A DNA stretch of 32,962 bases from an uncultured Verrucomicrobiota bacterium (GTDB taxonomy: Bacteria; Verrucomicrobiota; Verrucomicrobiia; Limisphaerales; JAEYXS01), in the NCBI GenBank assembly GCA_964599715.1, contig CAZRGY010000003.1, positions 1 to 32,962 on the forward strand. Direction: 5' to 3'. Shown here piece after piece: positions 8,920 through 32,559 of the stretch. The translations under genes and the position numbers were made by a program. The notes beneath the pieces are model-generated. The model was not told where the DNA came from. It made no database searches and saw only the letters and a program-made list of their open reading frames with translations. Each line of letters starts with the position of its first letter. Position 1 is the first letter of the stretch.

Positions 8920-8945
8920 CTATCTCTCCTGATCAGATTAAAGAC

Positions 8946-9281: not shown

Positions 9282-9295
9282 ATCATCATGCTGTC

Positions 9296-10606: not shown

Positions 10607-10607
10607 T

Positions 10608-11321: not shown

Positions 11322-11333
11322 AAGAGTTCAAAT

Positions 11334-16093: not shown

Positions 16094-16179
16094 GAGGGTA
16101 TCACCCCAGATAGGTTCTGTATTTGTGCGGGCGGTAGCTTGATTTGAACGATGGTCGCGCCATGCAACCAAGGCGCTGG

Positions 16180-16251: not shown

Positions 16252-19200
16252 TTAAATGGTCATGTATACTAAGTAGAAGCGCTGCGCAAAATAGCTTGCA
16301 TCATTGTCCAGCCAGCTTGTGGTCGTACCTGTGGCCTGAATATCATCGCTCAATTGGACCCAATCTGCGTCTGTCAGATTACTTTTACCAAGCACACGGT
16401 AGGTCTTTCCAGCAACACTGCTCCAGGCGATGCGCTGTGCGCTTCCCTCGGGTCGAACGGTAGTGCTGGAAACCGCGTTCCCTGTTATTGCGATATCGGC
16501 ATTGCCAGAAGTGCCAACAGTATATGCTGCTTCGACCATCAAGGACATCGTCGCGGTCCTAATGCCGGTAATACCGGCAACCGCAGCCGGGATCAAAGTG
16601 ACTGTGGCCGAGGCACTGCCAACCGGAATCGTCACTGTGGCCGGTAGCAAGCCGTAGTCTGTGCCGTTCACTGCGGTACCACCATAGGTCACGTTCACCG
16701 TAAGAGCCGCAATGGTGCTCCCGGTCCGGGTGAGGGTAAAGACACCCGGATCCGCCCCTGCTTGCGAAGCAGTAGGATCGGTCGCGATTACGCTAACCGA
16801 GGGTAGAGCAATAGCATTGTCGTTGTCATAGAGATAAACGGTGGCGGTGTTCTCTGAGCCGAGGTTGTAGGTCGCATCTGCCTGGATGGTCAGAATGGCC
16901 GTCTCAGTGACTTCCTCCTCGGCATCATCCACGGCATAGATGGTTAGTGTAACCGTCTGGGCACCCGCCGGAATGATGATAGATTCCGGCATATCACCTT
17001 GCGCACGGCGGAAATCACTCCATTTACCGGCGGTTCCACTGAACTTGTAGTTTACGGTCAGTGCCGAACTCGTGTTACCCGTGCGCGTGAAGGTGTAGTA
17101 GGCGGTATCTTCGCCTTCGGTGGCGCCAGGATCAGTCGCGACAACACTAACGGTCGGCAGGCTGTTCGTGGCGAAGAAGCTTATCGCAGCCACGGCCCGG
17201 CGGCCATCGGGCCATTGCGCTTCGGCTTCCACCCATTGGTCACCGTAGCTGACCGGGTGGAAGGTGAAGGTGCTGCCGTATGCAGGTTCTTGATCGCGGG
17301 CTTCCCAGGCTATGCGAGCACCGTTCAGATCAAGGCCATCTACCTGCATGGTAGCGGTGATGAGGCCATTCGTGCCGATTTCCGTGGGCACACCGATGAT
17401 CCGAGCGGTAGTGGACTTCCATGGCTGCGTCTTCGTGGCTGTCAACGTGGCGAGGTAGGCGATGCTGGCGATGCCGCGAGCCTGGGCAACGGCCACGAAC
17501 TCGGTGGTCACGTTGAAGTTATCCGCCCAACGGTCATAGAAGGGGTAGGGAGCCGTGCCGGCATCGTCGGAAGGGAAGGTCAGGGCGGTCAGCTCAGAAC
17601 CGTAGTTCTCAGAGTAGTTGAAACCACCCTGGATATTCCCAATCGGAATACCAGCGGGCGGCATGACGCGGCGGTCGCTCTGCGCATATTGATGAACGAT
17701 CTCGCGCTGGCGTTTCCAGCCCATGCCCGTCAGATAGCTGACGTTGACCGGGTTGTTGCCCGCTTCATAGTTCAGGTTGGCGAGGATGGCATCCAGATAC
17801 TCGGCTCTGGGCGTGATCTGCTGGGCCACCGCGATATCGAAGGCCTGTTCGTTGGAGAAGTACCAGCCTGCGCCGCGAACGCGTTTGGTCGCATCCGGGA
17901 AGCTGCTGCCATAGGCGCCTTGATTCGACCAGAGGAGCGCGTCGTTACCGCCGGCGATGATCTGGGCTTCACATTTGGCGAGATAAGCGGCGTTCAACTG
18001 GCCCGAGGTCAGGCGACCACTACGGGCGGCAAAGGCGTAACTACGGATGGCGTGGCCATAGGAGCCATACAAACGCCACCAGCCCCAGCGGAAGGTCGCG
18101 GCGTTGCTAGGGTCGGGGAACCATTCGGCCAGCTTTTGCTGATATTGGCTTTCACCGGTGGCGGCGAACATCTCGGCTGCGGCCCAGGCCAGTTCGTCAT
18201 CATGGCGATAGTCGTCACCGTAGTGGGTGATTTTCTGGTAGGCGCCGTCTTTGCCGTAGCGGGCAATGGCAGTCGTGAGGAATTGCCAGCCCAGCCTGGC
18301 TTGCTGCAAGTAGGCGGCAGCGGCCACAGGGTACGCCTGCTTGAAGCGCGGTGATGAAGCAGTTTGGGCGAGGGCGGCCACGGCGGCCGCCGTAGAGGCG
18401 GTGGTCTTGGGCCAGACCACCTGGGCATCACCATGGTCCGGTTGCGTGCCGCTCTCGTACTCGCGCTCGCGGGGGTAAACGAGGAAGTAGAAACCCCCAT
18501 CAGTGTCCTGGAGCTTGGCCACATAGTCAGCTTCCCATTTGGCCGCTTGCATCAGATCGCTGATGCCGTCACTGCTTTCGGGGACACCGAGGTTATCCAA
18601 GGCAGCCACACCCGGGATGGAATCCACGGCGAACATCAGGTAATGGATCAGATTGGCGCTGTTGATCGTGTATTTGCTGTAGTCACCGGCATCATGATGA
18701 CCGCCCGAAAGGTCCAAGGCTCCCGTTTTCACGAACGGATAGAGCTGGGCAGCCGGACTGGTCAGCAAAGGAGCTGTTTGCGCCGGATTATCCACGTTCG
18801 CTTTCATGGCGTAGTTGGAGATCGTGGTCCAGGTGAACTGGAACGAGGATGAAGGCATCGGCACACTGACCAGTGCATGATGGCAGTTTTCATGGGTATG
18901 ACGGGTGAAGGGCATGACATTGTTGGTGCCGCAGCGCTGGTGATACAAGCCCAGGGCATAAGCGCGGGTGAAGCCCATCGCGACGCCCTCATCGATCATA
19001 AATGGCAGCGAGGCACCAAGACCGGGAACCATCAATTGATATTCACCGGGAGTGGTAAAGCTGGTGAAGTCCGCTTCCAAGACCTTCTGGTAAGGTGTCG
19101 GGCTGTAGGAATAACCGACATCGGCGCGGACTTTGAGGGTCCCTTGATACACGGAGACACCACTATGGATGTTCACGAGGGAGAAGCCCAAGGAACTGGC

Positions 19201-22200
19201 GATATTCATCTCACCCAAGCTGCCGAGGTAGTAGCCGACCATCGCCTTTTTCGGCAGAGCGGGCACATAGCCTTCTTGATTAACATGGATGGCGGGGCTG
19301 TAGCGCAGGGGTTCGGCCTTGGCGGTGAACTGCATGGTGGAAGACCAAAGCAAACCGCTGGGGTTTTTCACTTCGACCACCTGATTACTGCCCACCGCGG
19401 TGGCAAGTTGCAGGTAGAGTGAGTTGTCGATGCGCAGATCGCGGGGCGACAGGGGCGCATAGAGCGGGCGGCGTTTGAAGCCGACCGATTGGACCGCCAC
19501 TGGCTGGCCGTCCACCGTCACAACGAACTCGCCAAGTGCGGGCGCGGTGAAGGTGCCGGAATTCACAAAATTCCAGATCGTTGGGGTGCCATTCATCGGC
19601 TTCGTGCCGATGGCGTGCAGTTCGAGCAGGGTGGGTGACAGAATATTGAGGCCGCTGTCGCCGACTTTAGGCAGGGTCATGTCCACGTAATTGACCACAC
19701 TTACGGAGGCGGCAGTAAGGTTTGTGACTACCACATTCGTCGAGGGAGGCACTGCAGTCACACTAACGAGGTTGAGCGTAAGTACATTGGTCGTTGCCAC
19801 TGTATAGAACGCATTCGTCGCCAAGGTAAGGGTCATCGTTGCCGGATTTGCCGCCGTCACATTCGCGACTGCCATTATGGTGAGATTGGCTGAGGCTGCC
19901 CCGGCGGGAATTGTGATCGTCACAGGCATATCGCCTTCTGGGCGACGATAATCCACCCATTTCACCGCAGATCCGCCCAAGGTGAAATTGATGACCAAAG
20001 AGTTACTCGTAGCACCCGTTCGGGAGAAGGTGAATACCCCATTGTCATTGGTGCCGATGGTAGCAATTCCATCAACTACCGTAGCTGAAACCTCGGGCAA
20101 TACTGGAATCTCTGGAGCAAAGTCGCCGGAGAATTTACCGGCGTAATCCCAAGTGGCACGCCCATTGTATGTGGTGAAGGCCATGCCATTGAGTTTCTTC
20201 CCTTCCAGCCCCACGGCACTGGCCGGAACTTCGAGGCGGATCCACTGACCAGTCACCGGCAAGGCACCTGCATAGTAACGGCTGGCAGTGCCACTAGCCC
20301 CATAGGTGATCAGATTGGCCCCCCAATAGGCGCGATGTTCCCATGATCCATCAGTCCATTGCAGCATCAGTTCAGACGGCGGGTTCGCAGGATCAAGATA
20401 GACGTAGGTAAAGAGTTTATCACCAGCATTCACACTCAATGTGGTCGTAGCGGAAACGAAATAGTGCTGGTGAAGTCCGGTGGCAATCCCCGATTGATGA
20501 GCGACATTGCCCGCGAAAGGAGCCGGGCCGGTATTCACCCATTTCCAAGCATCCCCGCCATCAGCCGAAAGGGAAGCGCCGCCCGGTGCCGCATCATCAA
20601 CCCAAACGGTTGTGCTGCCGTTTGCAGGAGGGACCGTCGGGGTATCAATGACAGGCACAACCACACCGGTGATGGTCCAGAACTGCCCCTGGCTGGCGTT
20701 ATAGTAAGTGCCGCTCGGGGTGTTCTCCAATTTGACCGCCCGTACCATGTAGGTATTCGTGCCGTTAAGCGGAGCGGTATCGAGGAATGATGCAGTGGTC
20801 ACCAAAGAGCTGTTCAAACGCGTAAATGGTCCGGTCAAAGTGGCCGAACGATAAACGTGATACCCAATGATATTATCGGGCGAGGCCGTCCAAGCCAGAC
20901 TCACCCCTGTGACAAGCGAGGTGCCGCTGACATTGCTGACCGGCGAAACAGGGTGCATGCGCAAGGTAGGATCGCCCATGAGCGCCACATGGATTCCACC
21001 CGCGCCGTTGTTCATTTGGTTCTTGTATAGGCCTGTATTGTTCTGCGTGAGACGAGTACTGTAACCGATAGTCTCGCCCAAACCCATGTGCTGAAAAAAC
21101 CAGTGAGGACGCCCCGACCAGCAACTGGTCAAACCGAAATCTTTCGTCGCCAGAACGGAACGCAGGAGGTTGTCTTCCGAATCCCAATCCCCCAGCCAGC
21201 TACCAAAGAGCATGGTAAACACAGACCGGATATTAGCGTCGACCAGGTCAGTGGAATACATCTCATTGTACAATCCTGAGTCGCCCAAGCCACTTATGCT
21301 GGAATATGTGCCCGGACCGCATCCATAAGCCCAAAGATAGTCATTGGCAGACAGCGTTGGCAGCCAGACACCTTTAAGATCGTTGAAGGCCAAATTGAGG
21401 TTTGCCGTATTGGCTGCACTGAAAAACGGGGCGAAGTTCCGGTAACCGTTGGCGGCAAAGGCTTCACCATTACTCGTGCCGAAATAATCACCCACAATCC
21501 CCCGGCGTTGGGCTGCGGTCAGGTTGTGTCGAAAATTATGGTCTTTGTTCAGGTATTGGCGCAGCAGTTCCAGTTCGCTGGGAAAAGTTGCCGGACCGCC
21601 CCAAATCTTGCGACCGGGCATATTCGCCAGGTCCACACGCCCCACTTGCAATTTCACCACAGCAGGAGGTGTGGATTGATCGAACTTACCGTCACCCGGA
21701 ACGTTACGATTACGAGCGTCGCTAGCACCTGAATTATTGACCGTGTTGTCGGTCCATACTCCATCCATGTCACCGTAAAAAACGTCGGCTGGCCACGCAC
21801 CAAAGTGCTCAGGGCTATGACCGTCCGGAACAACATTGCCAGAGTAAGCTACGGGCACATGCCCGAAGAGAAATACCGCCTTAGTGTTGGCCGGATCATT
21901 GGTGTAATCCTCCCTGATGAGATTTTTAACGCTGTTGGGAGTATCATCACGAGCGACGTCGTGGCGAATCACTGTCCAGCCATCGCCAAGCAGATCCTGC
22001 TGTAACCGGGTTAACTCCACCGTCAATTGATTGGCATACGTGTTATCCACAATCAGGATCACTTTGCCGCGACTTTCGACCAGCGGCACATTCACACCCG
22101 CGTAGATGTAGCCATAGCCAGTGTAGGACGAAGCGGACTTCACTACCTGATATTCATAAGCCTTACCGGCGAGAATGGTGGCATCCGTAAAATTAGTAGA

Positions 22201-22443
22201 TGCCCCAGTCAAGGTTATGCCATTGCCCCAAGCAGTATCCTCGGCGGCTTTCCGATAGACGGTGTAACTCGATGGTGTCCCAAGGGAATCCTGGGGCCAG
22301 TTGAGGATGACCTTGGGAGGTGAAGCTTGCACGTTTGCACTGACCTGCACGGAGAACTCCCAGACAGGTTCAACGGCTACGGAGGTCAATGACCACAGCG
22401 CAGCGATAGCTAGCGTAGCGGCGGCCTTGAATTGCTTTTTCAT
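16252..22443 (-). CDS. Giant secreted multidomain protein: FN3 / gingipain(C25)-like / FN3 / uncharacterised module / Calx-beta / Ig+GH9 / beta module / 2x Calx-beta / C-terminal tail
   Basis: Uninterrupted 2063-codon ORF. Signal peptide MKKQFKAAATLAIAALWSLTSVA. Approximate domains in aa: FN3 38-115; C25-like 125-495 (KVILIVDN..LQQDLLGDGWTV..VKNLIREDY..AVFLFGHVPV..VFYGDMDG..LQVGRV); FN3 498-590; W-rich module 610-772 (LMLQWTDGSWEHRAYWG); Calx-beta 784-890; Ig+GH9 915-1668 (HHDAGD at 18682-18699); beta module 1670-1757; Calx-beta 1763-1875 and 1880-1988; tail 1993-2063 ending RFYLVYMTI. Confidence 0.9.
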   Translation of the reverse strand: MKKQFKAAATLAIAALWSLTSVAVEPVWEFSVQVSANVQASPPKVILNWPQDSLGTPSSYTVYRKAAEDTAWGNGITLTGASTNFTDATILAGKAYEYQVVKSASSYTGYGYIYAGVNVPLVESRGKVILIVDNTYANQLTVELTRLQQDLLGDGWTVIRHDVARDDTPNSVKNLIREDYTNDPANTKAVFLFGHVPVAYSGNVVPDGHSPEHFGAWPADVFYGDMDGVWTDNTVNNSGASDARNRNVPGDGKFDQSTPPAVVKLQVGRVDLANMPGRKIWGGPATFPSELELLRQYLNKDHNFRHNLTAAQRRGIVGDYFGTSNGEAFAANGYRNFAPFFSAANTANLNLAFNDLKGVWLPTLSANDYLWAYGCGPGTYSSISGLGDSGLYNEMYSTDLVDANIRSVFTMLFGSWLGDWDSEDNLLRSVLATKDFGLTSCWSGRPHWFFQHMGLGETIGYSTRLTQNNTGLYKNQMNNGAGGIHVALMGDPTLRMHPVSPVSNVSGTSLVTGVSLAWTASPDNIIGYHVYRSATLTGPFTRLNSSLVTTASFLDTAPLNGTNTYMVRAVKLENTPSGTYYNASQGQFWTITGVVVPVIDTPTVPPANGSTTVWVDDAAPGGASLSADGGDAWKWVNTGPAPFAGNVAHQSGIATGLHQHYFVSATTTLSVNAGDKLFTYVYLDPANPPSELMLQWTDGSWEHRAYWGANLITYGASGTASRYYAGALPVTGQWIRLEVPASAVGLEGKKLNGMAFTTYNGRATWDYAGKFSGDFAPEIPVLPEVSATVVDGIATIGTNDNGVFTFSRTGATSNSLVINFTLGGSAVKWVDYRRPEGDMPVTITIPAGAASANLTIMAVANVTAANPATMTLTLATNAFYTVATTNVLTLNLVSVTAVPPSTNVVVTNLTAASVSVVNYVDMTLPKVGDSGLNILSPTLLELHAIGTKPMNGTPTIWNFVNSGTFTAPALGEFVVTVDGQPVAVQSVGFKRRPLYAPLSPRDLRIDNSLYLQLATAVGSNQVVEVKNPSGLLWSSTMQFTAKAEPLRYSPAIHVNQEGYVPALPKKAMVGYYLGSLGEMNIASSLGFSLVNIHSGVSVYQGTLKVRADVGYSYSPTPYQKVLEADFTSFTTPGEYQLMVPGLGASLPFMIDEGVAMGFTRAYALGLYHQRCGTNNVMPFTRHTHENCHHALVSVPMPSSSFQFTWTTISNYAMKANVDNPAQTAPLLTSPAAQLYPFVKTGALDLSGGHHDAGDYSKYTINSANLIHYLMFAVDSIPGVAALDNLGVPESSDGISDLMQAAKWEADYVAKLQDTDGGFYFLVYPREREYESGTQPDHGDAQVVWPKTTASTAAAVAALAQTASSPRFKQAYPVAAAAYLQQARLGWQFLTTAIARYGKDGAYQKITHYGDDYRHDDELAWAAAEMFAATGESQYQQKLAEWFPDPSNAATFRWGWWRLYGSYGHAIRSYAFAARSGRLTSGQLNAAYLAKCEAQIIAGGNDALLWSNQGAYGSSFPDATKRVRGAGWYFSNEQAFDIAVAQQITPRAEYLDAILANLNYEAGNNPVNVSYLTGMGWKRQREIVHQYAQSDRRVMPPAGIPIGNIQGGFNYSENYGSELTALTFPSDDAGTAPYPFYDRWADNFNVTTEFVAVAQARGIASIAYLATLTATKTQPWKSTTARIIGVPTEIGTNGLITATMQVDGLDLNGARIAWEARDQEPAYGSTFTFHPVSYGDQWVEAEAQWPDGRRAVAAISFFATNSLPTVSVVATDPGATEGEDTAYYTFTRTGNTSSALTVNYKFSGTAGKWSDFRRAQGDMPESIIIPAGAQTVTLTIYAVDDAEEEVTETAILTIQADATYNLGSENTATVYLYDNDNAIALPSVSVIATDPTASQAGADPGVFTLTRTGSTIAALTVNVTYGGTAVNGTDYGLLPATVTIPVGSASATVTLIPAAVAGITGIRTATMSLMVEAAYTVGTSGNADIAITGNAVSSTTVRPEGSAQRIAWSSVAGKTYRVLGKSNLTDADWVQLSDDIQATGTTTSWLDNDASYFAQRFYLVYMTI
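16480..17157 (-). repeat. Two tandem Calx-beta-like coding repeats (aa 1763-1988 of the giant protein)
   Basis: Repeated pattern V(S/A)V(V/I)ATDP..(S/T)E......(Y/F)T(F/L)TRTG.T..ALTVN......GTA...(D/S)(Y/F)........(I/V)IP(A/V)G......T(L/I). The first copy ends with the Calx-type ATVYLYDND. Confidence 0.65.
19774..20094 (-). repeat. Third (N-proximal) Calx-beta-like coding repeat (aa 784-890)
   Basis: VSATVVDGIATIGTNDNGVFTFSRTGATSNSLVINFTLGGSAVKWVDYRRPEGDMPVTITIPAGAASANLTIMAV matches the same pattern. The string KW(V/S)D(Y/F)RR..GDMP is shared with the repeat at aa 1763-1875. Confidence 0.6.
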
Positions 22444-22820: not shown

Positions 22821-23930
22821 TCAGAAGGTAACTGGCACGTTGACGCCTATGACAGTGTTGCCATCGGAGACCGCCCGGGCTCCTTCGTTGGCTCCGACAG
22901 TACGAACAAACGTATTCACAATCAGATCCAGATAACGAGTGAGGGTACGATATGGCGTATACGGCACGTACACGATATCTTGCGATTCCAAGGCGACATC
23001 AGGAGCCCGGCCTTTGACAATATCCCAGTAATTGACGATGGCGATCTTTGGCTCCGTCAAAGAACCACGCACAATCGCGACATGGGAAAGGTAAGCGTTT
23101 TTGATGGAACCTCCGGCTTTCGCGACGGCTGAAACCAGTGTTACCTGCTCCCCATAACTGATAGCACCAGGCAATGCTACGGCTCCAATCACATGGATTC
23201 CACGCGTAGAAGCAGCGGGTAGAAAAATGAAGTCATCCGGCTGCAGATAGAGATTTTGTGTCAAATCGCCCTCGCGTAAAAGCTTCTGGAAGTTGACGGG
23301 CAGCATCTTGCCCTGACGAATGATAAAGCTGCGTTGCAAATCGGCAGCTTCCTGTCGGCTGCTGGGAGTACCGGCGCCAGCTCCCGTAGCAAGTCCTGCC
23401 ACAGGGCTGGGTAACGCAGGTCCACCCGCACGAGAAATCGCTTCCAGCAATGTCACCGGTGTGGCCAAGGAGTAAATGCCCGGTCCATTGACCCGGCCAA
23501 GCATCCAAAAGCGTTTGCTCTCCACGCTCCGCAAGGTGAGAGAGATTTGAGGTGGTTCACGAAAGTATTCTACCAATTGGGATTCAAGCCGTGCCTTCGT
23601 TTCAGTAAGAGTCAAGCCCCACACATCCAATCCTGGCAGGAGGTAGTAATAGATTTTCCCATCTGGCCCCACGAGCGCTGTGCTCTTAGTTGCCATGTCG
23701 CCAGGTATCTGGATATCGAGGCGGTCACCCGGTCCCAGAGTAAAGGTGTTCGTCGGCATCAAAAGGCATTGGGGATCCAAAGTGTTGGTGATGGTGACGA
23801 GGTCAATGTTGGTGCTCGCTACGGAATTGGTACCACCGGTTTGACGGACGTCAAACTGCGGCCCGGTGCTGCGACATCCGAGAAGGATAAGGGCGCACAG
23901 AACAGCAGCGAGCAATGCTTTGAAATTCAT
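22821..23930 (-). CDS. Outer-membrane polysaccharide export lipoprotein (OPX, Wza-like: Poly_export + SLBB)
   Basis: ATG at 23930 (MNFKALLAAVLCALILLGCRS, lipobox LLGC) gives 369 aa. The track extension to 24044 overlaps the upstream gene. Poly_export motif TLGPGDRLDIQIPGD..., SLBB-like V.V.GAV..PG... repeats. Ends in ...VNVPVTF. Confidence 0.85.
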   Translation of the reverse strand: MNFKALLAAVLCALILLGCRSTGPQFDVRQTGGTNSVASTNIDLVTITNTLDPQCLLMPTNTFTLGPGDRLDIQIPGDMATKSTALVGPDGKIYYYLLPGLDVWGLTLTETKARLESQLVEYFREPPQISLTLRSVESKRFWMLGRVNGPGIYSLATPVTLLEAISRAGGPALPSPVAGLATGAGAGTPSSRQEAADLQRSFIIRQGKMLPVNFQKLLREGDLTQNLYLQPDDFIFLPAASTRGIHVIGAVALPGAISYGEQVTLVSAVAKAGGSIKNAYLSHVAIVRGSLTEPKIAIVNYWDIVKGRAPDVALESQDIVYVPYTPYRTLTRYLDLIVNTFVRTVGANEGARAVSDGNTVIGVNVPVTF

Positions 23931-23941
23931 AAACCTTACGA

Positions 23942-25462
23942 TTATTTGATGATTGATCCGATGTTGCCACCGGTCCAGGTGATGACGGCAGCTTGGACAA
24001 ACGCCGAGGCGAGCACATCCAGCAATTCCTCCGCTTTGACCCATGGGCGGCTGTTCACATAAATGATGTCGCGCGGCTGCAATTTGAAGTCTGGCGTATT
24101 GGCGGAAAGAATTCCCGTGACATCAATGACGAAGGTTTCCGGGTGGTTGAGCGATCCTCTTACCACGAGGACCTTGCCCTTCCACGCCTTCTCGGTGAAA
24201 CCACCACGCTGCGCGATAGCCCCGATCGTGGAAGCGCCCTTCGAATAGCTGACGGCACCGGGATATTTGACTTCACCCAGCACATAAAACTCGCGGATAT
24301 CGGTGGCTGGAAAATAAAGATAATCGTCTGGTTCCAAAGGAATGTTCTGAGAGAGATCACCGGCCAGAAAAAGCTTCTCAAAATCAACAGGCACACGCTG
24401 CCCACGCCGGGCGATAAAGCTATGAGACAGGTCGGCCAGTTCAACCACGTTCCTTTCCGACATACCGGTCTCGAAGCCTCGAGCCCGGGCGATCGCCTCA
24501 ATGACTGTGATCGGCCGGTCCAAAGTGAATACACCTTTCTGCGCTACACGCCCCAGCATGTAGTATTTTTTGCTCTGCAAAGCCACCGGGGAGATCATTG
24601 TACGGGGAGAACGTCGGTATTTACCAAGCTCGTCGTCGAATTTCTGACGCAACTCATCCACCGTCAATCCGGTGGCCATCAAGCCTTGCGCCTCCAAATA
24701 GCTGATCCGGCCGTCAGGACCTATGAACACTTCCTTAACAGTCAGCTCTGGTTCTCCATAAAGAGAAAAGTTGAGCACATCCCCTGCCCCTAATGTCAGG
24801 TGTTCCTGCCAAGGCGCACGCTTCACATTGCTCAGTGCAGAAAAAGATCCTTCCATAACGGAGGGTGGCGCTACTGCTGCTTGAGTCCCGATTTGCGTTT
24901 CTTCCAGCTCGCTAGCGGGCGCAATCCCAGCCGATTGCACTTCGATTGGGGACTCAGCCCCAACCAGTTCAGACGACACAGCATCCCGACGCTGATTGCC
25001 CCAGGAGATAGGTCTGGTAAAGGTAGCCGTGCCTAAGAGGTATTTGCTGATCGGATGGAAGAATTGCACTCTGATCCGGTCTGTAAACATAGGTTCAGGC
25101 TCGCGTAAATAGGTAACCTTGATACTTACAGAACCATCCCCTGTCGCAACCTGAACGGTCTCAATCTGAAAATATGATGACGACTTTGCATCCCCTTTCT
25201 TATCGACCAATGTCACCAACTGGATAGGCGGCTTGCCAAGCCCGCTGTAGTGATAGTCTAAAGTGATCACTTTCGCAGAGGATGTGTTGGGCGTGACTTT
25301 CAAGTTTGAGATTTTGCAGCCTGAAATGGTGAATTCTTGCTGTTCGTTAGTAGTAAGAATCTCACCAAACACCATCAAACCAGAGCAACAAGCCGACAGG
25401 ATGCCCAATACAAGCATTGATATCTGCCTGGCTGAACGGATGAAAATAGATGCGTTTATCAT
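23942..25462 (-). CDS. Second OPX (Wza-like) lipoprotein with about 200-aa N-terminal extension
   Basis: The track start 25477 is TTG. ATG 25462 gives MINASIFIRSARQISMLVLGILSACCSG (lipobox LSAC). Poly_export motif LTLGAGDVLNFSLYGEPEL, then SLBB-like FYVLGEVKYPGAVSY. aa ~30-200 has no motif I recognise. Confidence 0.8.
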   Translation of the reverse strand: MINASIFIRSARQISMLVLGILSACCSGLMVFGEILTTNEQQEFTISGCKISNLKVTPNTSSAKVITLDYHYSGLGKPPIQLVTLVDKKGDAKSSSYFQIETVQVATGDGSVSIKVTYLREPEPMFTDRIRVQFFHPISKYLLGTATFTRPISWGNQRRDAVSSELVGAESPIEVQSAGIAPASELEETQIGTQAAVAPPSVMEGSFSALSNVKRAPWQEHLTLGAGDVLNFSLYGEPELTVKEVFIGPDGRISYLEAQGLMATGLTVDELRQKFDDELGKYRRSPRTMISPVALQSKKYYMLGRVAQKGVFTLDRPITVIEAIARARGFETGMSERNVVELADLSHSFIARRGQRVPVDFEKLFLAGDLSQNIPLEPDDYLYFPATDIREFYVLGEVKYPGAVSYSKGASTIGAIAQRGGFTEKAWKGKVLVVRGSLNHPETFVIDVTGILSANTPDFKLQPRDIIYVNSRPWVKAEELLDVLASAFVQAAVITWTGGNIGSIIK

Positions 25463-25473
25463 GGAAATAGTTC

Positions 25474-27534
25474 TCAAGATGCAACAGGTTCAACCCAACG
25501 TGAGAAATGTGTGTTGAACGCTTTGGAAGAATCATCCGTCAACACGGCTCCCACAATATTACAGCAGGCATTGCGAAGTGTATCAAGCTGGGCGCGGGTC
25601 TCGGTAGCGCTTGCCTTGCCGCTTTCAGACAGCCAGATGAGATTAGGCAGGTTTTCCGCCAACAAGACCGCCTCGGATGAAGAGGCTGGCGGCAGCTCGA
25701 CCAAGATCACCACATTATCGATTTGTTGCCATTGCTCCAAAGCCGCTTTCCATTGTTTGCGCCTTTCCAGATTCCAGACCCAACCGGGCAAAGGGATATG
25801 CACTAGGGGCTGTGCGTCCTCACCTGTCAGCCGTTGGGAAACGACGGAAGGACTGGCTAAAACATTGGGCGTCTGCAGCGCCGTCTCTGAACTCTCTAAT
25901 GTCTCATTCAGCGCAGTGTGCGCGTCCAATTCCGAAGGCCGCGGCGTTTGAACCTCATTCTGGCCAGCAGCTTCCTTGGTAGAGATCGTCAACACTTTGA
26001 ATCCGCACTGGCTGGCTGCTTGGGCCAGCAGATTCAAACATACAGAACGTTCCTCACCGGAGGTTGAGGCCGTGAACCCGCAAACCAACCCTTGATTAGG
26101 ATTCATGCCGATGCGGTTCTGCAGCCTAGTCCAAGCACGAAAGGCCCAGTCTCGGCGTTCTCTCGACGACATGCACTCGAAATTGTCCAACCGAGCCAAA
26201 ACCGGCAATTTAGTGACTCGCTTAACGTCCTCCGCAGTTTTGATGCGATCATCAAAAAGCTCACGCAAAGCCAGGATGAGTGCGGCCAAAATGCCACCTG
26301 AAACCGCACCAAACGCAGTCAAGAAAGCTACTTTAATGGCAGGATCATGCACAATTATTCCGGCCATCGTCGCTGGCAAAAGAATGCGGTAAATACCGGG
26401 AGAACTCTTCTCGAATAACTCCAAAGTATTCTGCCGATTTAGCAGTGTAATTCTGCTCTCCTCCAGCGAGGTGAGTTTTGTACGGATGATGTCCAAATCA
26501 GTCGCAGGCTCTGCGGATAGTCCGGCATCAACAGGCAATAACAGGGGGGGCACAGCTATGTTGTTTGAAGCGGGAGGAACAGGAACAGCAACGTCAGCGG
26601 ATCCAAATAGAAGCATCTGTTTTTCAATGGCACCAATTTTTGATTGCTGAGCCTGCACTAAAGGATGTAGCTCCGTATAGCGGGTAAGCAGATCAAACAA
26701 TTCATCGCGAGCTTGGTCTAGTTTCTTGGAGAGCTGAAGCGTTCGTGTTGGCTTTCCCGCTGGCTCGATTGCTTCAACTACGACAGGCCTAGCCAGTAAA
26801 GCGGCTGCGGAGGCCAACTTGCTACTTGTCCGCCATTGAAGGTTCAACGAGAGGATTTCCCGATTGATCTGCGATAATTGATTCTGAATGTAACGGCTTA
26901 TCTCATTGGCCGATTCCCCTTGCATCTCTTTCGTGTAGTCCACGGCTTCGGAAGCATAGAGATTTGCAGTTTTTAGCGCTTCATCCGCAGTCTTGGCATT
27001 CATCGCCACGGTCAGTATCTCACTGTTTCTTTCCGGCACAATTCGGATGTTTTCACCTAGTTGTGCCTGAGCAGCATACTCCAGCTTACTGCTCACACGT
27101 TCGATGAGATCAGGGGAACGTAACAAGCCGGCAAACGTCTGTGCGGTTACTTGCCGATCTCCGATGATGCTGGCCGTATTGGCTGATTCCTGTCGAACCA
27201 ACTGAGCTGTAGCGGTGTAGCTCTTCTCCCATAGTTCGAGTCCGACCATCAGTCCGAGAACACTCGCACACAAGCAACCCAAAACAATCCAGAGCCACTG
27301 CCTGACAACTAGTCCGGCTAAAGAAAGAAAGTCGAAAGGATACGCAATTGCATTGTTTTGCCCTCCATAAAAACCACCCTCATCGCCAAATTCTTCCCCA
27401 CTTTTATGGTGTACACGGTTGCCAGTTCGCTCATGCGGATAAGCATTTAACACATTCTGATGTGAATCCGTATTCTTCATAAAAACTCTTTTGGCAACTT
27501 TAGCTTTGCAATTCGCCCCTATCATCCACCCCAT
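25474..27534 (-). CDS. Polysaccharide co-polymerase (PCP-2/Wzc-GumC-like chain-length determinant) with degenerate C-terminal P-loop module
   Basis: 686 aa. ATG 27534 is preceded by GGAGGT with a 12-nt spacer. Two hydrophobic helices (aa ~76-100 and ~400-425) flank a long coiled-coil-like periplasmic region. The C-terminal region is collinear with BY-kinase (LVCGFTASTSGEERSVCLNLLAQAASQCGFKVLTIS; NVVILVELPP). Confidence 0.8.
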   Translation of the reverse strand: MGWMIGANCKAKVAKRVFMKNTDSHQNVLNAYPHERTGNRVHHKSGEEFGDEGGFYGGQNNAIAYPFDFLSLAGLVVRQWLWIVLGCLCASVLGLMVGLELWEKSYTATAQLVRQESANTASIIGDRQVTAQTFAGLLRSPDLIERVSSKLEYAAQAQLGENIRIVPERNSEILTVAMNAKTADEALKTANLYASEAVDYTKEMQGESANEISRYIQNQLSQINREILSLNLQWRTSSKLASAAALLARPVVVEAIEPAGKPTRTLQLSKKLDQARDELFDLLTRYTELHPLVQAQQSKIGAIEKQMLLFGSADVAVPVPPASNNIAVPPLLLPVDAGLSAEPATDLDIIRTKLTSLEESRITLLNRQNTLELFEKSSPGIYRILLPATMAGIIVHDPAIKVAFLTAFGAVSGGILAALILALRELFDDRIKTAEDVKRVTKLPVLARLDNFECMSSRERRDWAFRAWTRLQNRIGMNPNQGLVCGFTASTSGEERSVCLNLLAQAASQCGFKVLTISTKEAAGQNEVQTPRPSELDAHTALNETLESSETALQTPNVLASPSVVSQRLTGEDAQPLVHIPLPGWVWNLERRKQWKAALEQWQQIDNVVILVELPPASSSEAVLLAENLPNLIWLSESGKASATETRAQLDTLRNACCNIVGAVLTDDSSKAFNTHFSRWVEPVAS

Positions 27535-27626: not shown

Positions 27627-28256
27627 CTAGGGAACAAGCCCGTTATGAATCGCATAATGGATCAGTTCCGCGCTAGTCTTGAGGCACATCTTCTCCAACA
27701 AGCGCGCACGATATGTACTCACGGTCTTGTCACTCAATGAGAGCTCACGGGCGATTTCCCGCACTGTTTTCCCTTCTCCAATCAAACGCAGCACCTGAAA
27801 TTCGCGGTCTGAAAGAGATTCATGTGGCTGCTTTTGCGGATCGACATCCAGATAAAGCACTAACTTTTCTGCCAATTCCGCGCTCACATAACGCCCTCCT
27901 CCAAGAATCTTTTTAACCGCGCCAACCAACTCCTCAGGAGCACATTCTTTAGTCATGTATCCAGCAGCACCTGAACGTATGACCCTAATGGCGAACTGAT
28001 CCTCCGGGTGCATACTAAGCACAAGGACAGGGAGTTTTGGCCGGGATGCTTTAATATCTTTTAAAACTTCCATTCCACCTCTTCCAGGCATGTTGATATC
28101 GAGTATTACGAGATCCCACCCCTCATTTGTGATCATGCCCAACGCCGAATGTGATGATCCAGCCTCACCAAATACCGCCTTCCGAAATGATTCATTTAAG
28201 ATTTGCTTAAGCCCGCGTCTTACCACGGCGTGGTCATCAACTATGAGTATTCGCAT
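27627..28256 (-). CDS. NarL/FixJ-family response regulator (REC + LuxR-type HTH)
   Basis: 209 aa. MRILIVDDHAVVRRGL, phospho-acceptor context DLVILDINMPGRGG, PVLVLSMH, HTH LSDREFQVLRLIGEGKTVREIARELSLSDKTVSTYRARLLEKM. Confidence 0.92.
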   Translation of the reverse strand: MRILIVDDHAVVRRGLKQILNESFRKAVFGEAGSSHSALGMITNEGWDLVILDINMPGRGGMEVLKDIKASRPKLPVLVLSMHPEDQFAIRVIRSGAAGYMTKECAPEELVGAVKKILGGGRYVSAELAEKLVLYLDVDPQKQPHESLSDREFQVLRLIGEGKTVREIARELSLSDKTVSTYRARLLEKMCLKTSAELIHYAIHNGLVP

Positions 28257-29983: not shown

Positions 29984-30254
29984 CAAAGTCTCTGAGCTCT
30001 TTTTATTTCCTTTAACCTCTCCGGAATTGGCACCAGCCGAACTAGAGTAGAATCACAGAAGCTTGCACTCACAGTAGGTGATGACCTCACACTTAGTTAA
30101 AATGCACCGCAGCTTTTCAATCTCCTCGCACTCAACCCGCAATTTCGGCGGGTAAAGGCCTGATAACAGTTCAATCCGCGTTGACGCATCCTGAGACACG
30201 CTAGTCTGGCGGATTTCAGACGAGTCTATTGTAAAGCTTAATTTATTGAACACT
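29984..30254. promoter_or_regulatory. Divergent intergenic region (ABC/regulator/export train versus GT26-STAS operon)
   Basis: 271 bp between divergent ATGs 29983 (minus) and 30255 (plus). Contains a GC-rich 6-bp hairpin ACCCGC/GCGGGT at 30135-30153 and a questionable 74-codon ORF (30053-30277, minus). Confidence 0.4.
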
Positions 30255-31412
30255 ATGGCCAGGTTTCCTTTTGTCATTTGTGGCGTTCCCTTTGATCAGG
30301 TAACGATGGATGAATCTGTGGCCATAGTTCAGCAGATGATCGCCTCAAAGCGCCCCCATCACGTTGTCACTGCAAATGTCGATTTCCTCGTTCAATCTCT
30401 TGCCGACAGGGATCTCCACCGAATTTTTCTTCATGCACATCTTCTCCTTTGTGATGGCACCCCGCTTATTTGGGCTTCACGTTTCTTAGGGAATCCACTG
30501 CCGGAAAGAGTGGCAGGAGCTGACCTTGCACCTAAGCTGATCAAACTGGCGGAAGAAAAGAAATACCGGATCTACTTACTCGGTGGCAGCTACGAATCAA
30601 ATACTGCCGCAGTAAGAAAGCTGAAGCAGGACCATCCAAACCTGATCATAGCTGGAAATCATTCCCCTCCCTTCGCACCACTGTCCAGCATGGATCATGC
30701 AGACATTTGTAAACGCATACGACTGGCCAAGCCTGATATCCTGCTGGTTTCATTCGGGTGCCCAAAACAAGAAAAATGGATTGCCAGGCACCATCGAACA
30801 TTGGGAGTACCTGTTTCGATCGGAGTCGGTGCTGTCATAGATTTCTTCGCCCAGAGGGTAAAAAGAGCTCCAGTGTGGATGCAACGGTCCGGGACAGAGT
30901 GGATATTCCGTCTCTTACAAGAACCGAAGCGTCTATTCCGGCGTTATTTAGTCGACCTTTATTGTATCAGTTTCGCGATAATATCAGAACAATGGCATAT
31001 CATTACCAGAACCTCTCCGCCGATTGATCCGTTGCAAGAACTGTTGATCGAAAAAGAACTTCAGTGGCACCGGGTACAAACCCCAAATCGATTGGATTCC
31101 AACTCGATTCAAACTAATTCAGCTATCTGGCACAACATACGTGGGCGTAATTATGTGCTAGACTTGGAAAATGTCGGTTTCATTGATGGCGTAGGCGTAG
31201 GGTTGTTAATCCGATTGCACCACCGATTAAAACAGGAAGGCCACATGCTCCTGCTTTCACGAGCCTCAAAAGTGGTCTGTGCAACACTTAACAGAAGACG
31301 GCTAAATGAGCATTTCAACATGGTTCAAAATGATTTTGAGGCCAGTCAAGCAATTGCAAATCACCGTCGTGGACAGAATCTCCCCTCAATAGAGACCCCA
31401 GAATTGAACTGA
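30255..31412 (+). CDS. WecB/TagA/CpsF-family (GT26) glycosyltransferase fused to a C-terminal STAS domain
   Basis: The track start 30246 is TTG. ATG at 30255 (MARFPFVICGVPFD). GT26 motifs HVVTANVDFLVQ, LLLCDGTPLIWASRFLG, YLLGG, ILLVSFGCPKQEKWI, GVGAVIDFFAQRVKRAPVWMQRSGTEWIFRLLQEPKRL. STAS-like tail at about 31038-31361 (NYVLDLENVGFIDGVGVGLLIRLHHRLKQEGHMLLLS). Confidence 0.8.
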   Translation: MARFPFVICGVPFDQVTMDESVAIVQQMIASKRPHHVVTANVDFLVQSLADRDLHRIFLHAHLLLCDGTPLIWASRFLGNPLPERVAGADLAPKLIKLAEEKKYRIYLLGGSYESNTAAVRKLKQDHPNLIIAGNHSPPFAPLSSMDHADICKRIRLAKPDILLVSFGCPKQEKWIARHHRTLGVPVSIGVGAVIDFFAQRVKRAPVWMQRSGTEWIFRLLQEPKRLFRRYLVDLYCISFAIISEQWHIITRTSPPIDPLQELLIEKELQWHRVQTPNRLDSNSIQTNSAIWHNIRGRNYVLDLENVGFIDGVGVGLLIRLHHRLKQEGHMLLLSRASKVVCATLNRRRLNEHFNMVQNDFEASQAIANHRRGQNLPSIETPELN

Positions 31413-31413
31413 A

Positions 31414-32559
31414 ATGAATATCGGCATTTCCACTTCAGTTGTGCAGCGTGGTAAAACAGGGGTGGGGCAATATATTCTGGCTCTCGTACGAGCGCTCATT
31501 GCAGCAAAATCACCACACCGATTCATTCTATTTGTATTAGAAGATGATCTACCACTGTTCGCCTTCGCCCGAGAGGACATGACGCTGGTCTCTGTACCTG
31601 AACGCCACCGCTCACCGTTGCTTAACATCATCTGGCACCAAATCACGCTACCCAAGCTTGTCCGCCAGCACAAAATTGACGTCCTTCATATCCCGAGTTA
31701 CCGCCGGATGCTGTGGCGGCACCCGTGTCCACTTGTGGCCACAATCCACGATCTGGCACCACTATGCGTCAAAGGAAAATATGATTTGCTGAGGACATTC
31801 TATGCCAGGTGGGTCGTCAAACATCTCGCGAAAAGACAGGACCAGATTATCGCGGTCAGCAATAACACGGCTCAAGATATAAAACATTTTTTCCTTACAC
31901 CCTCATCCAAACTCAATGTAGTGCATAACGGGGTTGATCATAGCCACTATTATTCAGAAAATGTCGATTGTTCAAAGGCATTGATCACTCAGCGATATGG
32001 CCTCACTTCGCCATTCTTCCTTTATGTTTCCCGACTGGAGCATCCCGGGAAAAACCACATCCGCCTCATCAAAGCATTTGAAATGCTCCATAAAAGCCAT
32101 CCTGACTGGCGTCTTGTCTTCGCTGGCAGCGATTGGGACGGAGCTGAAATCATTCACGAAGCAGTGAGCAAATCAAATTGCAAAAACTCTATTCGCTCGC
32201 TCGGATTTGTACCAAGTGAAGTGTTGCCTGATTTAATGCGAGCCGCAGAAGTCTTTGTTTATCCATCACTCTATGAGGGATTCGGGCTTCCTATCGCTGA
32301 AGCTATGGCTTGCGGCTGCCCTGTGATTTGCTCCAATTGCAACAGTATGTTGGAAGTCGCAGGCGACGCCGCAGCGACAGCTAACCCTGAGAATGTGCTA
32401 GCATGGAAAACTCAATTGAAGCGTTTGGCAAGTAATCCACATCTGCGCAGAAAGCATGCATTGGCTGGATTGCAACGTGCGCGTAGTTTTGATTGGAAAC
32501 ATACAGCCTCCGCATCGATCAAGGTATTTGAAGCCGCTGGGGGTTTGGGGCAGACTTAA
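31414..32559 (+). CDS. Family 4 (GT-B) glycosyltransferase
   Basis: 381 aa. Starts 1 nt after the GT26-STAS stop. C-terminal signature [26 protein letters not shown]. Confidence 0.9.

What the first reader, a model, noticed from the sequence alone, without database searches (positions are those of the whole stretch)
31038..31361. GT26 (WecB/TagA/CpsF) glycosyltransferase carries a C-terminal STAS domain whose phospho-Ser position is Gly
The last ~110 aa of the GT26 enzyme read as a STAS fold (NYVLDLENVGFIDGVGVGLLIRLHHRLKQEGHMLLLSRASKVVCATL..L.EHF). The canonical D-S-S-G is D-G-V-G, so it cannot be switched by Ser phosphorylation.
With the free, Ser-containing STAS protein 21 kb away, the locus has two STAS modules, one switchable and one fixed. 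This is the layout expected if STAS-STAS or STAS-partner competition controls a committed glycosyl transfer.
A STAS domain fused directly to a polysaccharide glycosyltransferase is not a described regulatory arrangement as far as I know.
Basis: partly seen in the sequence, partly recalled or inferred. Interest (0 to 1): 0.66.

Follow-up and report, generated by a model that had tools for sequence, protein, structure and literature searches.

The report
Sugar transferase with fixed STAS switch
A polysaccharide-building enzyme carries a regulatory STAS domain that has lost its phosphorylation site; it is a reduced member of a large, unstudied family in Verrucomicrobia whose normal members have two phosphorylatable STAS domains and sit near their own kinase/phosphatase.

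Summary
The ORF at 30246/30255..31412 (+) encodes a TagA-like GT26 glycosyltransferase with intact catalytic residues. A complete STAS domain follows (residues 263-375, nt 31041..31379). Gly312 sits at the canonical phospho-Ser position, and the next residue is Val.

The fusion is not rare. All 120 best homologues and all 80 best genome loci carry GT26+STAS, essentially all in Verrucomicrobiota, including cultured Prosthecobacter and Rubritalea. The usual form is GT26-STAS-STAS with D-S-[ST]-G in both STAS domains. A GT4 gene follows. The genes lie in EPS clusters that often also encode a free STAS, an RsbW-like kinase (often fused to a PP2C phosphatase) and a phosphodiesterase.

The window's small clade is a reduced derivative. 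STAS2 is deleted, the STAS1 Ser is Gly or Ala, and the kinase slot between the free STAS and the phosphodiesterase is empty.

The most likely reading is an enzyme uncoupled from phospho-control and fixed in the unphosphorylated, probably active, state. This rests on analogy with Anabaena All4160 S74A and with SypA S56A.

A STAS fused to a polysaccharide transferase is already described: All4160, a STAS-PGT fusion, was published in 2026. I found no paper on GT26-STAS. I class it as a new variant of a known kind, of moderate interest.

The parts
30255..31412 (+). GT26-STAS coding sequence (385 aa from ATG 30255; the ORF opens at TTG 30246; stop at 31410..31412)
   Evidence: ORF list. Pfam PF03808 plus PF01740. 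Homologues start MA(T/N)FPFV. Sequence read.
30255..31007 (+). GT26 (TagA-like) catalytic domain with its C-terminal appendage, residues 1-251. T39, D67, R85, R219, R226 and R229 correspond to TagA T37, D65, R83, R214, R221 and R224.
   Evidence: phmmer alignment to T. italicus TagA 7mpk over residues 8-238. Foldseek target TM 0.91-0.94. Residue roles from PMC6493773. These columns are invariant or nearly so in 61 homologues.
31008..31040 (+). Variable linker, residues 252-262
   Evidence: pLDDT dips to 72-79 here. Identity within the clade is only 9-27%.
31041..31379 (+). STAS domain (the family's STAS1), residues 263-375
   Evidence: Pfam. AF2 secondary structure. Foldseek matches to SpoIIAA, RsbV, RsbS and TM1442.
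31185..31196 (+). D311-G312-V313-G314 loop. G312 occupies the canonical phospho-Ser position; the family consensus is D-S-T-G.
   Evidence: Alignment to SpoIIAA and TM1442. Codons gat ggc gta ggc. Across 87 related loci the site is Ser in 77, Gly in 6 and Ala in 4.
31414..32559 (+). GT4 glycosyltransferase, the conserved downstream partner of the GT26-STAS gene
   Evidence: Pfam. A homologue is present in 83 of 87 related loci, usually directly downstream.
8946..9281 (-). Free single-domain STAS protein with D-S-H-G (Ser retained)
   Evidence: Pfam PF01740 at E 4.8e-12. Sequence. Orthologues in relatives sit directly upstream of the kinase or kinase-PP2C gene.
8920..8945 (.). 26-bp gap between the free STAS and the phosphodiesterase gene. 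Many relatives carry an RsbW-like kinase or kinase-PP2C gene at this place.
   Evidence: kinase present in relatives. (slot empty across the window clade). No kinase or PP2C homologue among window ORFs of 50 aa or more or in the Pfam scans.
7714..8919 (-). Type I phosphodiesterase / AlkP-superfamily gene, the conserved last gene of the STAS operon
   Evidence: Pfam. 63-67% identity to genes in 19 related loci. 75-79% identity in the window clade.
9296..10606 (-). Nucleotidyltransferase-like + LbH + C-terminal half of a Bac_transf domain ("pseudo-PGT"), always just upstream of the free STAS. The likely start is ATG 10606 (436 aa).
   Evidence: Pfam. 436-aa orthologues. Fused to the STAS in Rubritalea marina, L083 7492..9027.
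10608..11321 (-). Complete Bac_transf phosphoglycosyl transferase, the initiating enzyme of the pathway
   Evidence: Pfam PF02397 at E 2.8e-66.
27627..28256 (-). REC + LuxR-type response regulator, a conserved transcription-level regulator of the cluster
   Evidence: Pfam. 66-68% identity in 20 related loci.

Best explanation
The gene encodes a catalytically competent GT26 (TagA/WecG-type) enzyme. Such enzymes add the second sugar to an undecaprenyl-pyrophosphate-linked primer of an exopolysaccharide. A complete STAS domain follows its C-terminal appendage.

It belongs to a family spread across Verrucomicrobiota. The standard form is GT26-STAS1-STAS2 with the canonical Ser in both STAS domains. 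That form is co-encoded with a GT4 partner, and often with a free STAS plus an RsbW-type serine kinase fused to, or next to, a PP2C phosphatase. Together these look like a partner-switching-like phospho-switch acting directly on the enzyme.

The window's lineage is a reduced derivative. STAS2 is deleted. The Ser and Thr of the STAS1 loop are Gly and Val. The kinase/phosphatase gene is absent from its usual slot between the free STAS and the phosphodiesterase. The enzyme here is therefore most likely uncoupled from serine phosphorylation, with its STAS fixed in the unphosphorylated state. By analogy with All4160 S74A and SypA S56A, that is the active state.

The domain is probably kept because it is structurally integrated with the GT26 C-terminal appendage, the element that completes the active site and binds the membrane in TagA. 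It may also serve as a docking surface.

Shown here: architecture, fold, intact catalytic residues, Gly at the site, the family pattern and the synteny. Inferred: that the family's STAS domains are kinase substrates, that phosphorylation is inhibitory, and that the window enzyme is constitutively on.
For: Fold and architecture:
- establish both domains.
- pTM 0.89 for a two-domain protein implies a confidently predicted domain arrangement.
- The catalytic residues are conserved (with PMC6493773 read).
- Gly sits at the Ser58-equivalent position.

Family pattern:
- All top 120 homologues carry PF03808+PF01740.
- Three sampled ~500-aa homologues each give two STAS stretches in Pfam.
- STAS1 has Ser in 55 of 61 aligned proteins and in 77 of 87 loci.
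- The window clade is the only group in the sample in which no STAS of the protein keeps the Ser.

Synteny with signalling genes:
- L004 and L015 have free STAS, then a HATPase_c_2 kinase, then the phosphodiesterase, then GT26-STAS-STAS and GT4.
- L037, L040, L081 and L083 carry HATPase_c_2-(GAF)-SpoIIE fusions.
- Seven further loci have the PP2C end cut off at the locus edge, just upstream of the phosphodiesterase.
- L040 reads hybrid histidine kinase, an ORF with no Pfam match, STAS, kinase-PP2C, REC, GT26-STAS-STAS, GT4 on one strand.
- 11 of 48 genome loci with at least 9 kb of upstream flank hold a kinase or PP2C within 10 kb.

Window clade:
- STAS is directly followed by the phosphodiesterase in the window and in the contigs of its closest relatives: seen directly in L088-L091 and the P0273 contig, and consistent with L092, where only a 41-aa cut ORF lies upstream.
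- The STAS domain is still conserved within the clade, at 39-53% identity. Its dN is 0.40-0.56 while dS is saturated.

Precedents:
- All4160 is inactivated by Ser74 phosphorylation, and its S74A variant is constitutively functional (PMC13555669).
- SypA S56A is active regardless of SypE (PMC10120452).
Against: - No experiment on any GT26-STAS protein was found.
- Only 33 kb of the genome is visible, so a kinase or phosphatase may be encoded elsewhere. The free STAS keeps its Ser throughout the clade, which suggests one exists.
- The joint loss is not a strict rule. L036 also lacks a kinase between STAS and the phosphodiesterase, yet its GT26 keeps Ser in both STAS domains.
- An Opitutaceae group lost the STAS1 Ser but kept STAS2.
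- The direction of the switch (phosphorylation turns the enzyme off) is borrowed from unrelated enzymes.
- Phosphorylation at a non-canonical site, or by Hanks-type kinases, cannot be excluded.
- I could not inspect the model's coordinates, so contact between the STAS and the appendage is inferred from pTM alone.
Confidence: 0.55

Rival explanations
1. The fixed, fused STAS and the switchable free STAS compete for one common partner, such as a kinase-like anti-factor or the pseudo-PGT/PGT complex. The phosphorylation state of the free STAS then decides indirectly whether the GT26 is engaged. A non-phosphorylatable STAS would bind an RsbW-type kinase stably and act as a sink or anchor.
For: The free STAS keeps D-S-H-G and is highly conserved across the clade, so some switch probably persists. 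The free STAS and GT26-STAS are co-clustered across the phylum. In the BACTH assay for All4160, the S74A STAS bound its kinases more strongly than the wild-type STAS (PMC13555669). In Rubritalea the free STAS is fused to the pseudo-PGT, which shows that STAS-enzyme docking is used in this system.
Against: No common partner is visible in the window, which has neither a kinase nor a PP2C. No interaction evidence exists. The ancestral form has Ser in all three STAS domains, which points to parallel substrates rather than a fixed/switchable pair.
Confidence: 0.2
2. The STAS tail is a vestige. Once the lineage lost phospho-control (kinase gone, STAS2 deleted, Ser lost), the remaining STAS1 has no function and is decaying slowly.
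For: STAS2 is already deleted and both hydroxyl residues of the loop are lost. STAS1 identity in the clade is somewhat lower than in Ser-containing pairs of equal GT26 divergence: 0.47 against 0.55 at about 0.80 GT26 identity.
Against: The domain is intact in the window and its four distinct relatives from independent assemblies (clade P0002-P0005; loci L005-L009), with no frameshift or truncation. The hydrophobic core, D311 and G314 remain invariant. AF2 confidence over the domain is 92-97. STAS1 evolves faster than GT26 across the whole family, so the difference is small and within range.
Confidence: 0.12
3. The STAS domain is a ligand or membrane sensor rather than a protein-protein switch. 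It might bind a nucleotide, a nucleotide-sugar or a lipid, and gate the GT26 appendage allosterically without any kinase.
For: The D-x-x-G loop at the N-terminus of helix alpha2 is invariant even where the Ser is lost. GTP binding has been reported for SpoIIAA (cited in PMC8256260). Many STAS domains, as in SLC26/SulP transporters, work without phosphorylation (PMC8256260, and my own knowledge).
Against: There is no evidence for a ligand here. The strong conservation of Ser (77 of 87) and the co-clustered kinase-PP2C genes in relatives argue that the family's ancestral mode is phosphorylation.
Confidence: 0.08

Closest known systems
All4160 of Anabaena sp. PCC 7120 (also All2285 and Synechocystis XssP): STAS fused to a Bac_transf phosphoglycosyl transferase
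   Same: A STAS domain is covalently fused to a lipid-carrier-dependent polysaccharide biosynthesis enzyme. An RsbW-type kinase (Alr3423) and a SpoIIE-type phosphatase (HenR) act directly on the enzyme rather than on a sigma factor. The non-phosphorylatable S74A form is functional without the phosphatase (PMC13555669).
   Different: In All4160 the STAS is N-terminal and single, the enzyme is a PGT (step 1), and the lineage is cyanobacterial. Here the STAS is C-terminal and ancestrally tandem, the enzyme is GT26 (step 2), and the lineage is Verrucomicrobiota. The window protein naturally lacks the Ser.
SypA / SypE of the Vibrio fischeri syp polysaccharide locus
   Same: A free STAS protein and a bifunctional RsbW-like kinase / PP2C phosphatase are encoded inside an EPS locus and act below the level of transcription. 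Unphosphorylated STAS is the active form, and its target is unknown (PMC10120452, PMC8256260).
   Different: No syp enzyme carries a fused STAS. SypE has a central REC domain, whereas the verrucomicrobial fusions have a GAF domain or nothing there. The window itself has no SypE-like gene.
TagA/TarA and WecG (GT26, WecB/TagA/CpsF family)
   Same: The fold is the same (target TM 0.91-0.94). The catalytic Thr and Asp, the Arg residues and the C-terminal appendage are all present (PMC6493773).
   Different: TagA and WecG are stand-alone proteins of about 245 aa with no STAS. They serve wall teichoic acid or ECA synthesis rather than a Wzx/Wzy-type EPS cluster.
SpoIIAA / RsbV anti-anti-sigma factors
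   Same: STAS fold and the D-x-x-G loop.
   Different: They are free proteins, depend on phospho-Ser, and signal to a sigma factor. The window domain has Gly at the site and is fused to an enzyme.
Non-phosphorylated STAS modules such as the SLC26/SulP C-terminal STAS and MlaB
   Same: A STAS without a phospho-switch serves as a fixed structural or regulatory appendage of a membrane-associated machine (my own knowledge, and PMC8256260).
   Different: The partner is a transporter, not a glycosyltransferase. There is no evolutionary link to a kinase-controlled ancestor.

Membership tests
GT26 (WecB/TagA/CpsF glycosyltransferases) | Match to PF03808 / TIGR00696 above the curated cut-off | tested here: met
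   PF03808 at 213.8 bits against a cut-off of 27.4. TIGR00696 at 147.4 bits against 69.
GT26 (WecB/TagA/CpsF glycosyltransferases) | TagA-type (GT-E) fold | tested here: met
   Foldseek to 7mpk, 5wb4 and 5wfg: E 1e-16, target TM 0.91-0.94, rmsd 1.6-2.1.
GT26 (WecB/TagA/CpsF glycosyltransferases) | Catalytic Thr37 and Asp65, plus the C-terminal appendage arginines (R214, R221, R224 in TagA) | tested here: met
   T39, D67, R219, R226 and R229 align to them. Residue roles are from PMC6493773.
GT26 (WecB/TagA/CpsF glycosyltransferases) | Transfer of a sugar from a UDP-sugar to a polyprenyl-PP-sugar acceptor | not testable with these tools
   Needs an enzyme assay. The donor and acceptor sugars are unknown.
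STAS domain (PF01740) | Profile match above the gathering score | tested here: met
   31.5 bits against 22.6, but only profile positions 41-100. PF13466 is below its cut-off.
STAS domain (PF01740) | Complete SpoIIAA-like alpha/beta fold | tested here: met
   AF2 elements at residues 264-375. Full-length structural matches to 4hyl, 1vc1, 6m36, 1til and RsbS.
Phospho-switchable anti-anti-sigma type STAS (SpoIIAA, RsbV, SypA, All4160) | Ser/Thr at the canonical position of the D-S-x-G loop | tested here: not met
   D-G-V-G. The family consensus is D-S-T-G.
Partner-switching system | RsbW/SpoIIAB-type kinase (HATPase_c_2) encoded with the STAS | tested here: not met
   None in the 33-kb window. 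Present in relatives. The rest of the genome is not visible.
Partner-switching system | PP2C/SpoIIE phosphatase encoded with the STAS | tested here: not met
   None in the window. Present as kinase-PP2C fusions in relatives.
All4160/XssP-type STAS-PGT fusions | N-terminal STAS followed by a Bac_transf (PF02397) domain | tested here: not met
   The architecture here is GT26 then STAS. The window's Bac_transf gene at 10608..11321 has no STAS.
Verrucomicrobial GT26-STAS(-STAS) family (defined here) | GT26 followed by STAS1, full-length homology, and a GT4 gene directly downstream | tested here: met
   47-68% identity over at least 88% of the query to 119 homologues. The GT4 neighbour is conserved.
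Verrucomicrobial GT26-STAS(-STAS) family (defined here) | A second STAS domain, and Ser in the STAS loops | tested here: not met
   Only 69 residues follow the STAS1 motif, with no STAS2, and the GT4 gene starts 2 nt after the stop codon. Gly is at the site.

The most novel reading that the evidence does not exclude
Verrucomicrobial EPS clusters may encode a multi-STAS partner-switching circuit. One SypE-like kinase/phosphatase would directly gate two successive lipid-linked assembly steps. The first is the PGT step, through a free STAS that docks on (and in Rubritalea is fused to) a pseudo-PGT. The second is the GT26 step, through its fused tandem STAS domains. The window's lineage would be a natural hard-wired version that lost the kinase, one STAS and the phosphosite. 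If so, direct STAS control of polysaccharide enzymes is not specific to cyanobacteria. The fusions would also act as a Rosetta stone for the long-unknown type of target of SypA-like STAS proteins.
Probability: 0.3. Interest if true: 0.7.

Novelty: new variant of a known kind. Interest (0 to 1): 0.47.

Why it matters
Direct post-translational control of polysaccharide-assembly enzymes by STAS partner-switching modules has only just been demonstrated. It was shown for one cyanobacterial STAS-PGT fusion, and the authors called it lineage-specific (PMC13555669). The family found here shows the same logic built independently on a different enzyme (GT26, the second step). The domain order differs and the STAS is ancestrally duplicated. 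It occurs in at least the 80 verrucomicrobial species genomes examined and probably several hundred (594 GT26 matches in the scan), including cultured strains.

The family offers natural genetic variants: Ser in both STAS domains, Ser lost in STAS1 only, a single STAS with Ser, and a single STAS without Ser. These map onto the mutants one would otherwise construct.

The fusions also suggest what kind of protein free EPS-locus STAS regulators such as SypA act on. That target has been unknown for more than a decade. The window's own protein is the least switchable member, so its individual importance is modest.

Tried and rejected
- **dN/dS by domain within the window clade.** dS is saturated (above 1.5, or undefined), so only dN and identity could be used.
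- **Relaxed constraint on the clade's STAS.** The clade shows 0.47 identity against 0.55 for comparably diverged Ser-containing pairs. This lies within the range of the others, so I do not claim relaxation.
- **NJ tree to order the events.** I asked whether P0006 (Gly in STAS1 but STAS2 retained) is sister to the window clade. The clade of five is recovered, but midpoint rooting places it on one side of the root. The order of events stays unresolved.
- **Strict co-loss of kinase and phosphosite.** Rejected as a rule. L036 has STAS directly followed by the phosphodiesterase, with Ser kept in both fused STAS domains. L059 lacks both the free STAS and the kinase.
- **The module next to the collinear cluster in L090.** It is a stressosome-type set (RsbRD_N+STAS, STAS, HATPase, SpoIIE), not the SypE-like fusion. 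I do not count it as the missing kinase.
- **Literature searches.** Searches for STAS+GT26, for anti-sigma factor antagonist + glycosyltransferase + Verrucomicrobia, and for partner-switching + polysaccharide returned nothing on GT26-STAS.
- **STAS tail against 1.8 billion representatives.** This gave 199 clusters at E up to 0.001. Lengths and match positions of many hits fit the GT26-STAS-STAS architecture, but the library has no annotation, so the result gives only a rough size.
Full report
**1. What is at the coordinates**

The ORF 30246..31412 (+) encodes 388 aa from a TTG. Homologues begin MA(T/N)FPFV, so ATG 30255 (385 aa) is the likely start. The gene caller's 368-aa version (P0001) cuts off a conserved N-terminal strand. 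I use the numbering from ATG 30255 below.

- Pfam gives Glyco_tran_WecG (PF03808) at E 1.7e-63 and STAS (PF01740) at 31.5 bits. The STAS score is above the gathering score of 22.6 but covers only profile positions 41-100. NCBIfam agrees.
- AlphaFold2 on a 61-sequence alignment gave pLDDT 92 and pTM 0.89. It shows a complete STAS topology at residues 264-375, after a long helix (224-251) and a short, less confident linker.
- Foldseek against the PDB returned TagA/TarA first (target TM 0.91-0.94). Full-length STAS proteins came next: 4hyl, TM1442, RsbV, SpoIIAA and RsbS, with target TM 0.73-0.84 and probability 1.0.
- phmmer against PDB sequences aligns FIDGVGVG with SpoIIAA FMDSSGLG. Gly312 (ggc, 31188..31190) therefore sits at the Ser58 position, and Val313 replaces the following Ser/Thr.

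**2. The enzyme part looks active**

The GT26 region aligns to T. italicus TagA over residues 8-238. T39, D67, R85, R219, R226 and R229 correspond to TagA T37, D65, R83, R214, R221 and R224. In TagA, T37, D65 and R221 are the catalytically important residues and R214 and R224 are conserved active-site arginines; R83 co-varies with the appendage. The three arginines lie in the C-terminal appendage, which completes the active site and binds the membrane (PMC6493773). Most of these columns are invariant in 61 homologues. The STAS starts about 12 residues after that appendage.

**3. The fusion is a large family, and the window protein is its reduced form**

- A search of 5.8 billion proteins returned thousands of hits. 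Every one of the best 120 carries PF03808+PF01740. Source names include [quoted passage not shown].
- Most homologues are about 500 aa. Three that I scanned each contain two STAS stretches.
- A scan of one genome per GTDB species found 594 GT26 matches. The best 80 loci were kept, and all but one (L085, where the match ends after the GT26 part and the tail could not be aligned) are GT26-STAS or GT26-STAS-STAS. Almost all are labelled Verrucomicrobiota: Pedosphaera, Limisphaerales, Opitutaceae, Akkermansiaceae, Prosthecobacter fluviatilis KACC 12649 and Rubritalea marina DSM 17716.
- At the STAS1 phosphosite, 55 of 61 aligned proteins and 77 of 87 loci have Ser, with consensus D-S-T-G. STAS2 usually has D-S-[ST]-G.
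- Exceptions at STAS1 fall into two groups. One is an Opitutaceae group (L039, L044, L045, L067) that keeps Thr at +1 and keeps STAS2. The other is the window clade (window, P0002-P0005, L005-L009), which has Gly or Ala at the site and no STAS2.
- Single-STAS forms with Ser also exist, in Akkermansiaceae and Rubritalea.
- The window clade is thus the only group sampled in which no STAS of the protein keeps the canonical Ser.
- The STAS2 deletion is clean. The GT4 gene starts 2 nt after the stop codon, as it does in independent assemblies of relatives.

**4. Genomic context links the family to a partner-switching module**

- The GT26-STAS and GT4 pair is conserved almost everywhere.
- Most other genes of the window have orthologues near GT26-STAS genes in other Verrucomicrobiota. 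These include GT2, an unknown 400-aa protein, Wzy, GT4, DUF2334, the phosphodiesterase, the free STAS, the pseudo-PGT, the PGT, Wza/Wzc-like genes and the REC-LuxR regulator.
- In relatives, the free STAS is followed by an RsbW-like HATPase_c_2 kinase (L004, L015) or by a HATPase_c_2-(GAF)-SpoIIE fusion (L037, L040, L081, L083). The phosphodiesterase comes next.
- Seven more loci show the PP2C end cut off by the 10-kb flank, just upstream of the phosphodiesterase.
- Of 48 genome loci with at least 9 kb of upstream flank, 11 hold such a gene and 18 hold the phosphodiesterase.
- In L040 the signalling genes abut the enzyme on one strand: hybrid histidine kinase, an ORF with no Pfam match, STAS, kinase-PP2C, REC, GT26-STAS-STAS, GT4.
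- In Rubritalea the free STAS is fused to the nucleotidyltransferase/LbH "pseudo-PGT" that precedes it elsewhere.

**5. The window clade lacks the kinase in its slot**

In the window, the free STAS (8946..9281, D-S-H-G) is separated from the phosphodiesterase (7714..8919) by only 26 bp. No HATPase_c_2 or SpoIIE homologue occurs anywhere in the 33 kb.

The closest phosphodiesterase homologues (75-79% identity) come from the same samples as the closest GT26-STAS genes. They show the same direct STAS-to-phosphodiesterase arrangement in L088-L091 and in the P0273 contig. L092, from a further sample, is consistent: only a 41-aa cut ORF lies upstream of its phosphodiesterase.

L090 is collinear with window 73..16171. 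The free STAS keeps its Ser and is strongly conserved in the clade, so a kinase may exist elsewhere in the genome. The module beside L090 is a stressosome-type set and not the SypE-like fusion.

The association between kinase loss and Ser loss is suggestive but not strict. L036 lacks the adjacent kinase and keeps both Ser residues.

**6. Is the remaining STAS still functional?**

Within the clade the GT26 part is 73-83% identical and the STAS 39-53%. dN is 0.13-0.19 against 0.40-0.56, and dS is saturated. STAS1 evolves faster than the catalytic domain across the whole family. The clade's values (0.47 at 0.80 GT26 identity) are only slightly below those of Ser-containing pairs (0.55) and within their range.

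The core residues, D311 and G314 are invariant, and the fold is predicted with high confidence. I conclude that the domain is maintained and is not a pseudodomain.

**7. Mechanism**

The best-supported reading follows.

- The family's STAS domains are the handle by which a cluster-encoded RsbW-type kinase and PP2C phosphatase switch the GT26 step. This is analogous to Anabaena All4160. There, Alr3423 phosphorylates Ser74 of the fused STAS and inactivates the enzyme, HenR reverses this, and S74A is constitutively functional (PMC13555669).
- It is also analogous to SypA/SypE. There, unphosphorylated STAS promotes polysaccharide production below the level of transcription through an unknown target (PMC10120452, PMC8256260).
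- The STAS sits immediately after the TagA-type appendage that must fold over the active site at the membrane (PMC6493773). It is therefore well placed to gate that step.
- In the window protein the phosphosite is absent, so the enzyme should be insensitive to such a kinase and fixed in the unphosphorylated state. Control would then rest on transcription (the conserved REC-LuxR regulator at 27627..28256) and perhaps on the free STAS.

These mechanistic steps are inferences. Only the anatomy, the family pattern and the synteny are shown here.

**8. Comparison with known systems, and novelty**

A STAS fused to a polysaccharide transferase is already described (All4160 and XssP, both STAS-PGT fusions).

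GT26-STAS(-STAS) differs in enzyme family, domain order, STAS number and phylum. I found no paper on it. The All4160 authors regard such control as lineage-specific to cyanobacteria, and the present family argues otherwise.

I class the finding as a new variant of a known kind. The window's own protein is the degenerate, least switchable member of that variant. Interest is moderate, at 0.47. The value lies mainly in the family and its natural allelic series, and in the hint it gives about the targets of SypA-like regulators.

Noticed in passing
window 9296..10702 (-), likely start ATG 10606: This "pseudo-PGT" has a nucleotidyltransferase-like N-terminus, an LbH/hexapeptide region, and only the C-terminal half of a Bac_transf domain (profile 91-174). 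It always lies between the real PGT (10608..11321) and the free STAS. In Rubritalea marina DSM 17716 it is fused to that STAS (L083 7492..9027, 511 aa).
   Followed up: partly
window 16252..22443 (-): A 2063-aa protein with CelD_N + GH9 domains has no homologue in any of the related loci. It lies in the stretch with the highest GC of the window (0.57-0.58 against 0.47-0.52). In the collinear relative L090 the cluster is bordered on this side, beyond the 871-aa GH9 gene, by a stressosome-like module (RsbR-, RsbS- and RsbT-like genes plus SpoIIE). This may be an insertion or a replacement.
   Followed up: partly
window 13451..16171 (-): A second GH9 (CelD_N + Glyco_hydro_9) protein of 906 aa sits inside the EPS cluster. 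It is conserved in L090 (871 aa) and L070. It hints at a beta-glucan-like polymer or a processing glycanase.
   Followed up: no
window 22821..24044 and 23942..25477 (-), with 25474..27534 (-): Two Poly_export/SLBB ORFs overlap by about 100 nt. In several relatives a single ORF of about 1000 aa matches both the 511-aa ORF and the Wzz-like ORF. This may be a gene fusion, a split, or a mis-set start.
   Followed up: no
L040 4915..12576 (uncultured Verrucomicrobia subdivision 3): One tight same-strand block reads hybrid histidine kinase, an ORF with no Pfam match, free STAS, HATPase_c_2-SpoIIE fusion, single REC, GT26-STAS-STAS, GT4. It is the clearest case of the signalling module abutting the enzyme.
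   Followed up: yes
L088/L090 and L008 (GCA_943367715.1): This MAG is titled "Chitinophaga pinensis". It carries PSCyt2/PSD1 genes and the verrucomicrobial EPS cluster, so the taxonomic label is probably wrong. It also has two paralogous copies of the GT4-PRK-PGT-pseudoPGT-STAS-phosphodiesterase operon.
   Followed up: partly
window 27627..28256 (-): A REC + LuxR-type response regulator is conserved at 66-68% identity in 20 related loci near GT26-STAS genes. It is a likely transcription-level regulator of the cluster.
   Followed up: partly
window 11334..12017 (-) and 7714..8919 (-): A PRK/uridine-kinase family gene and a type I phosphodiesterase (AlkP superfamily) gene are conserved members of the EPS operon. 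Their role in the pathway is unexplained.
   Followed up: no
window 73..1275 (-): A 400-aa protein with no Pfam match is conserved at 45-49% identity in 25 related loci, next to a GT2 gene.
   Followed up: no
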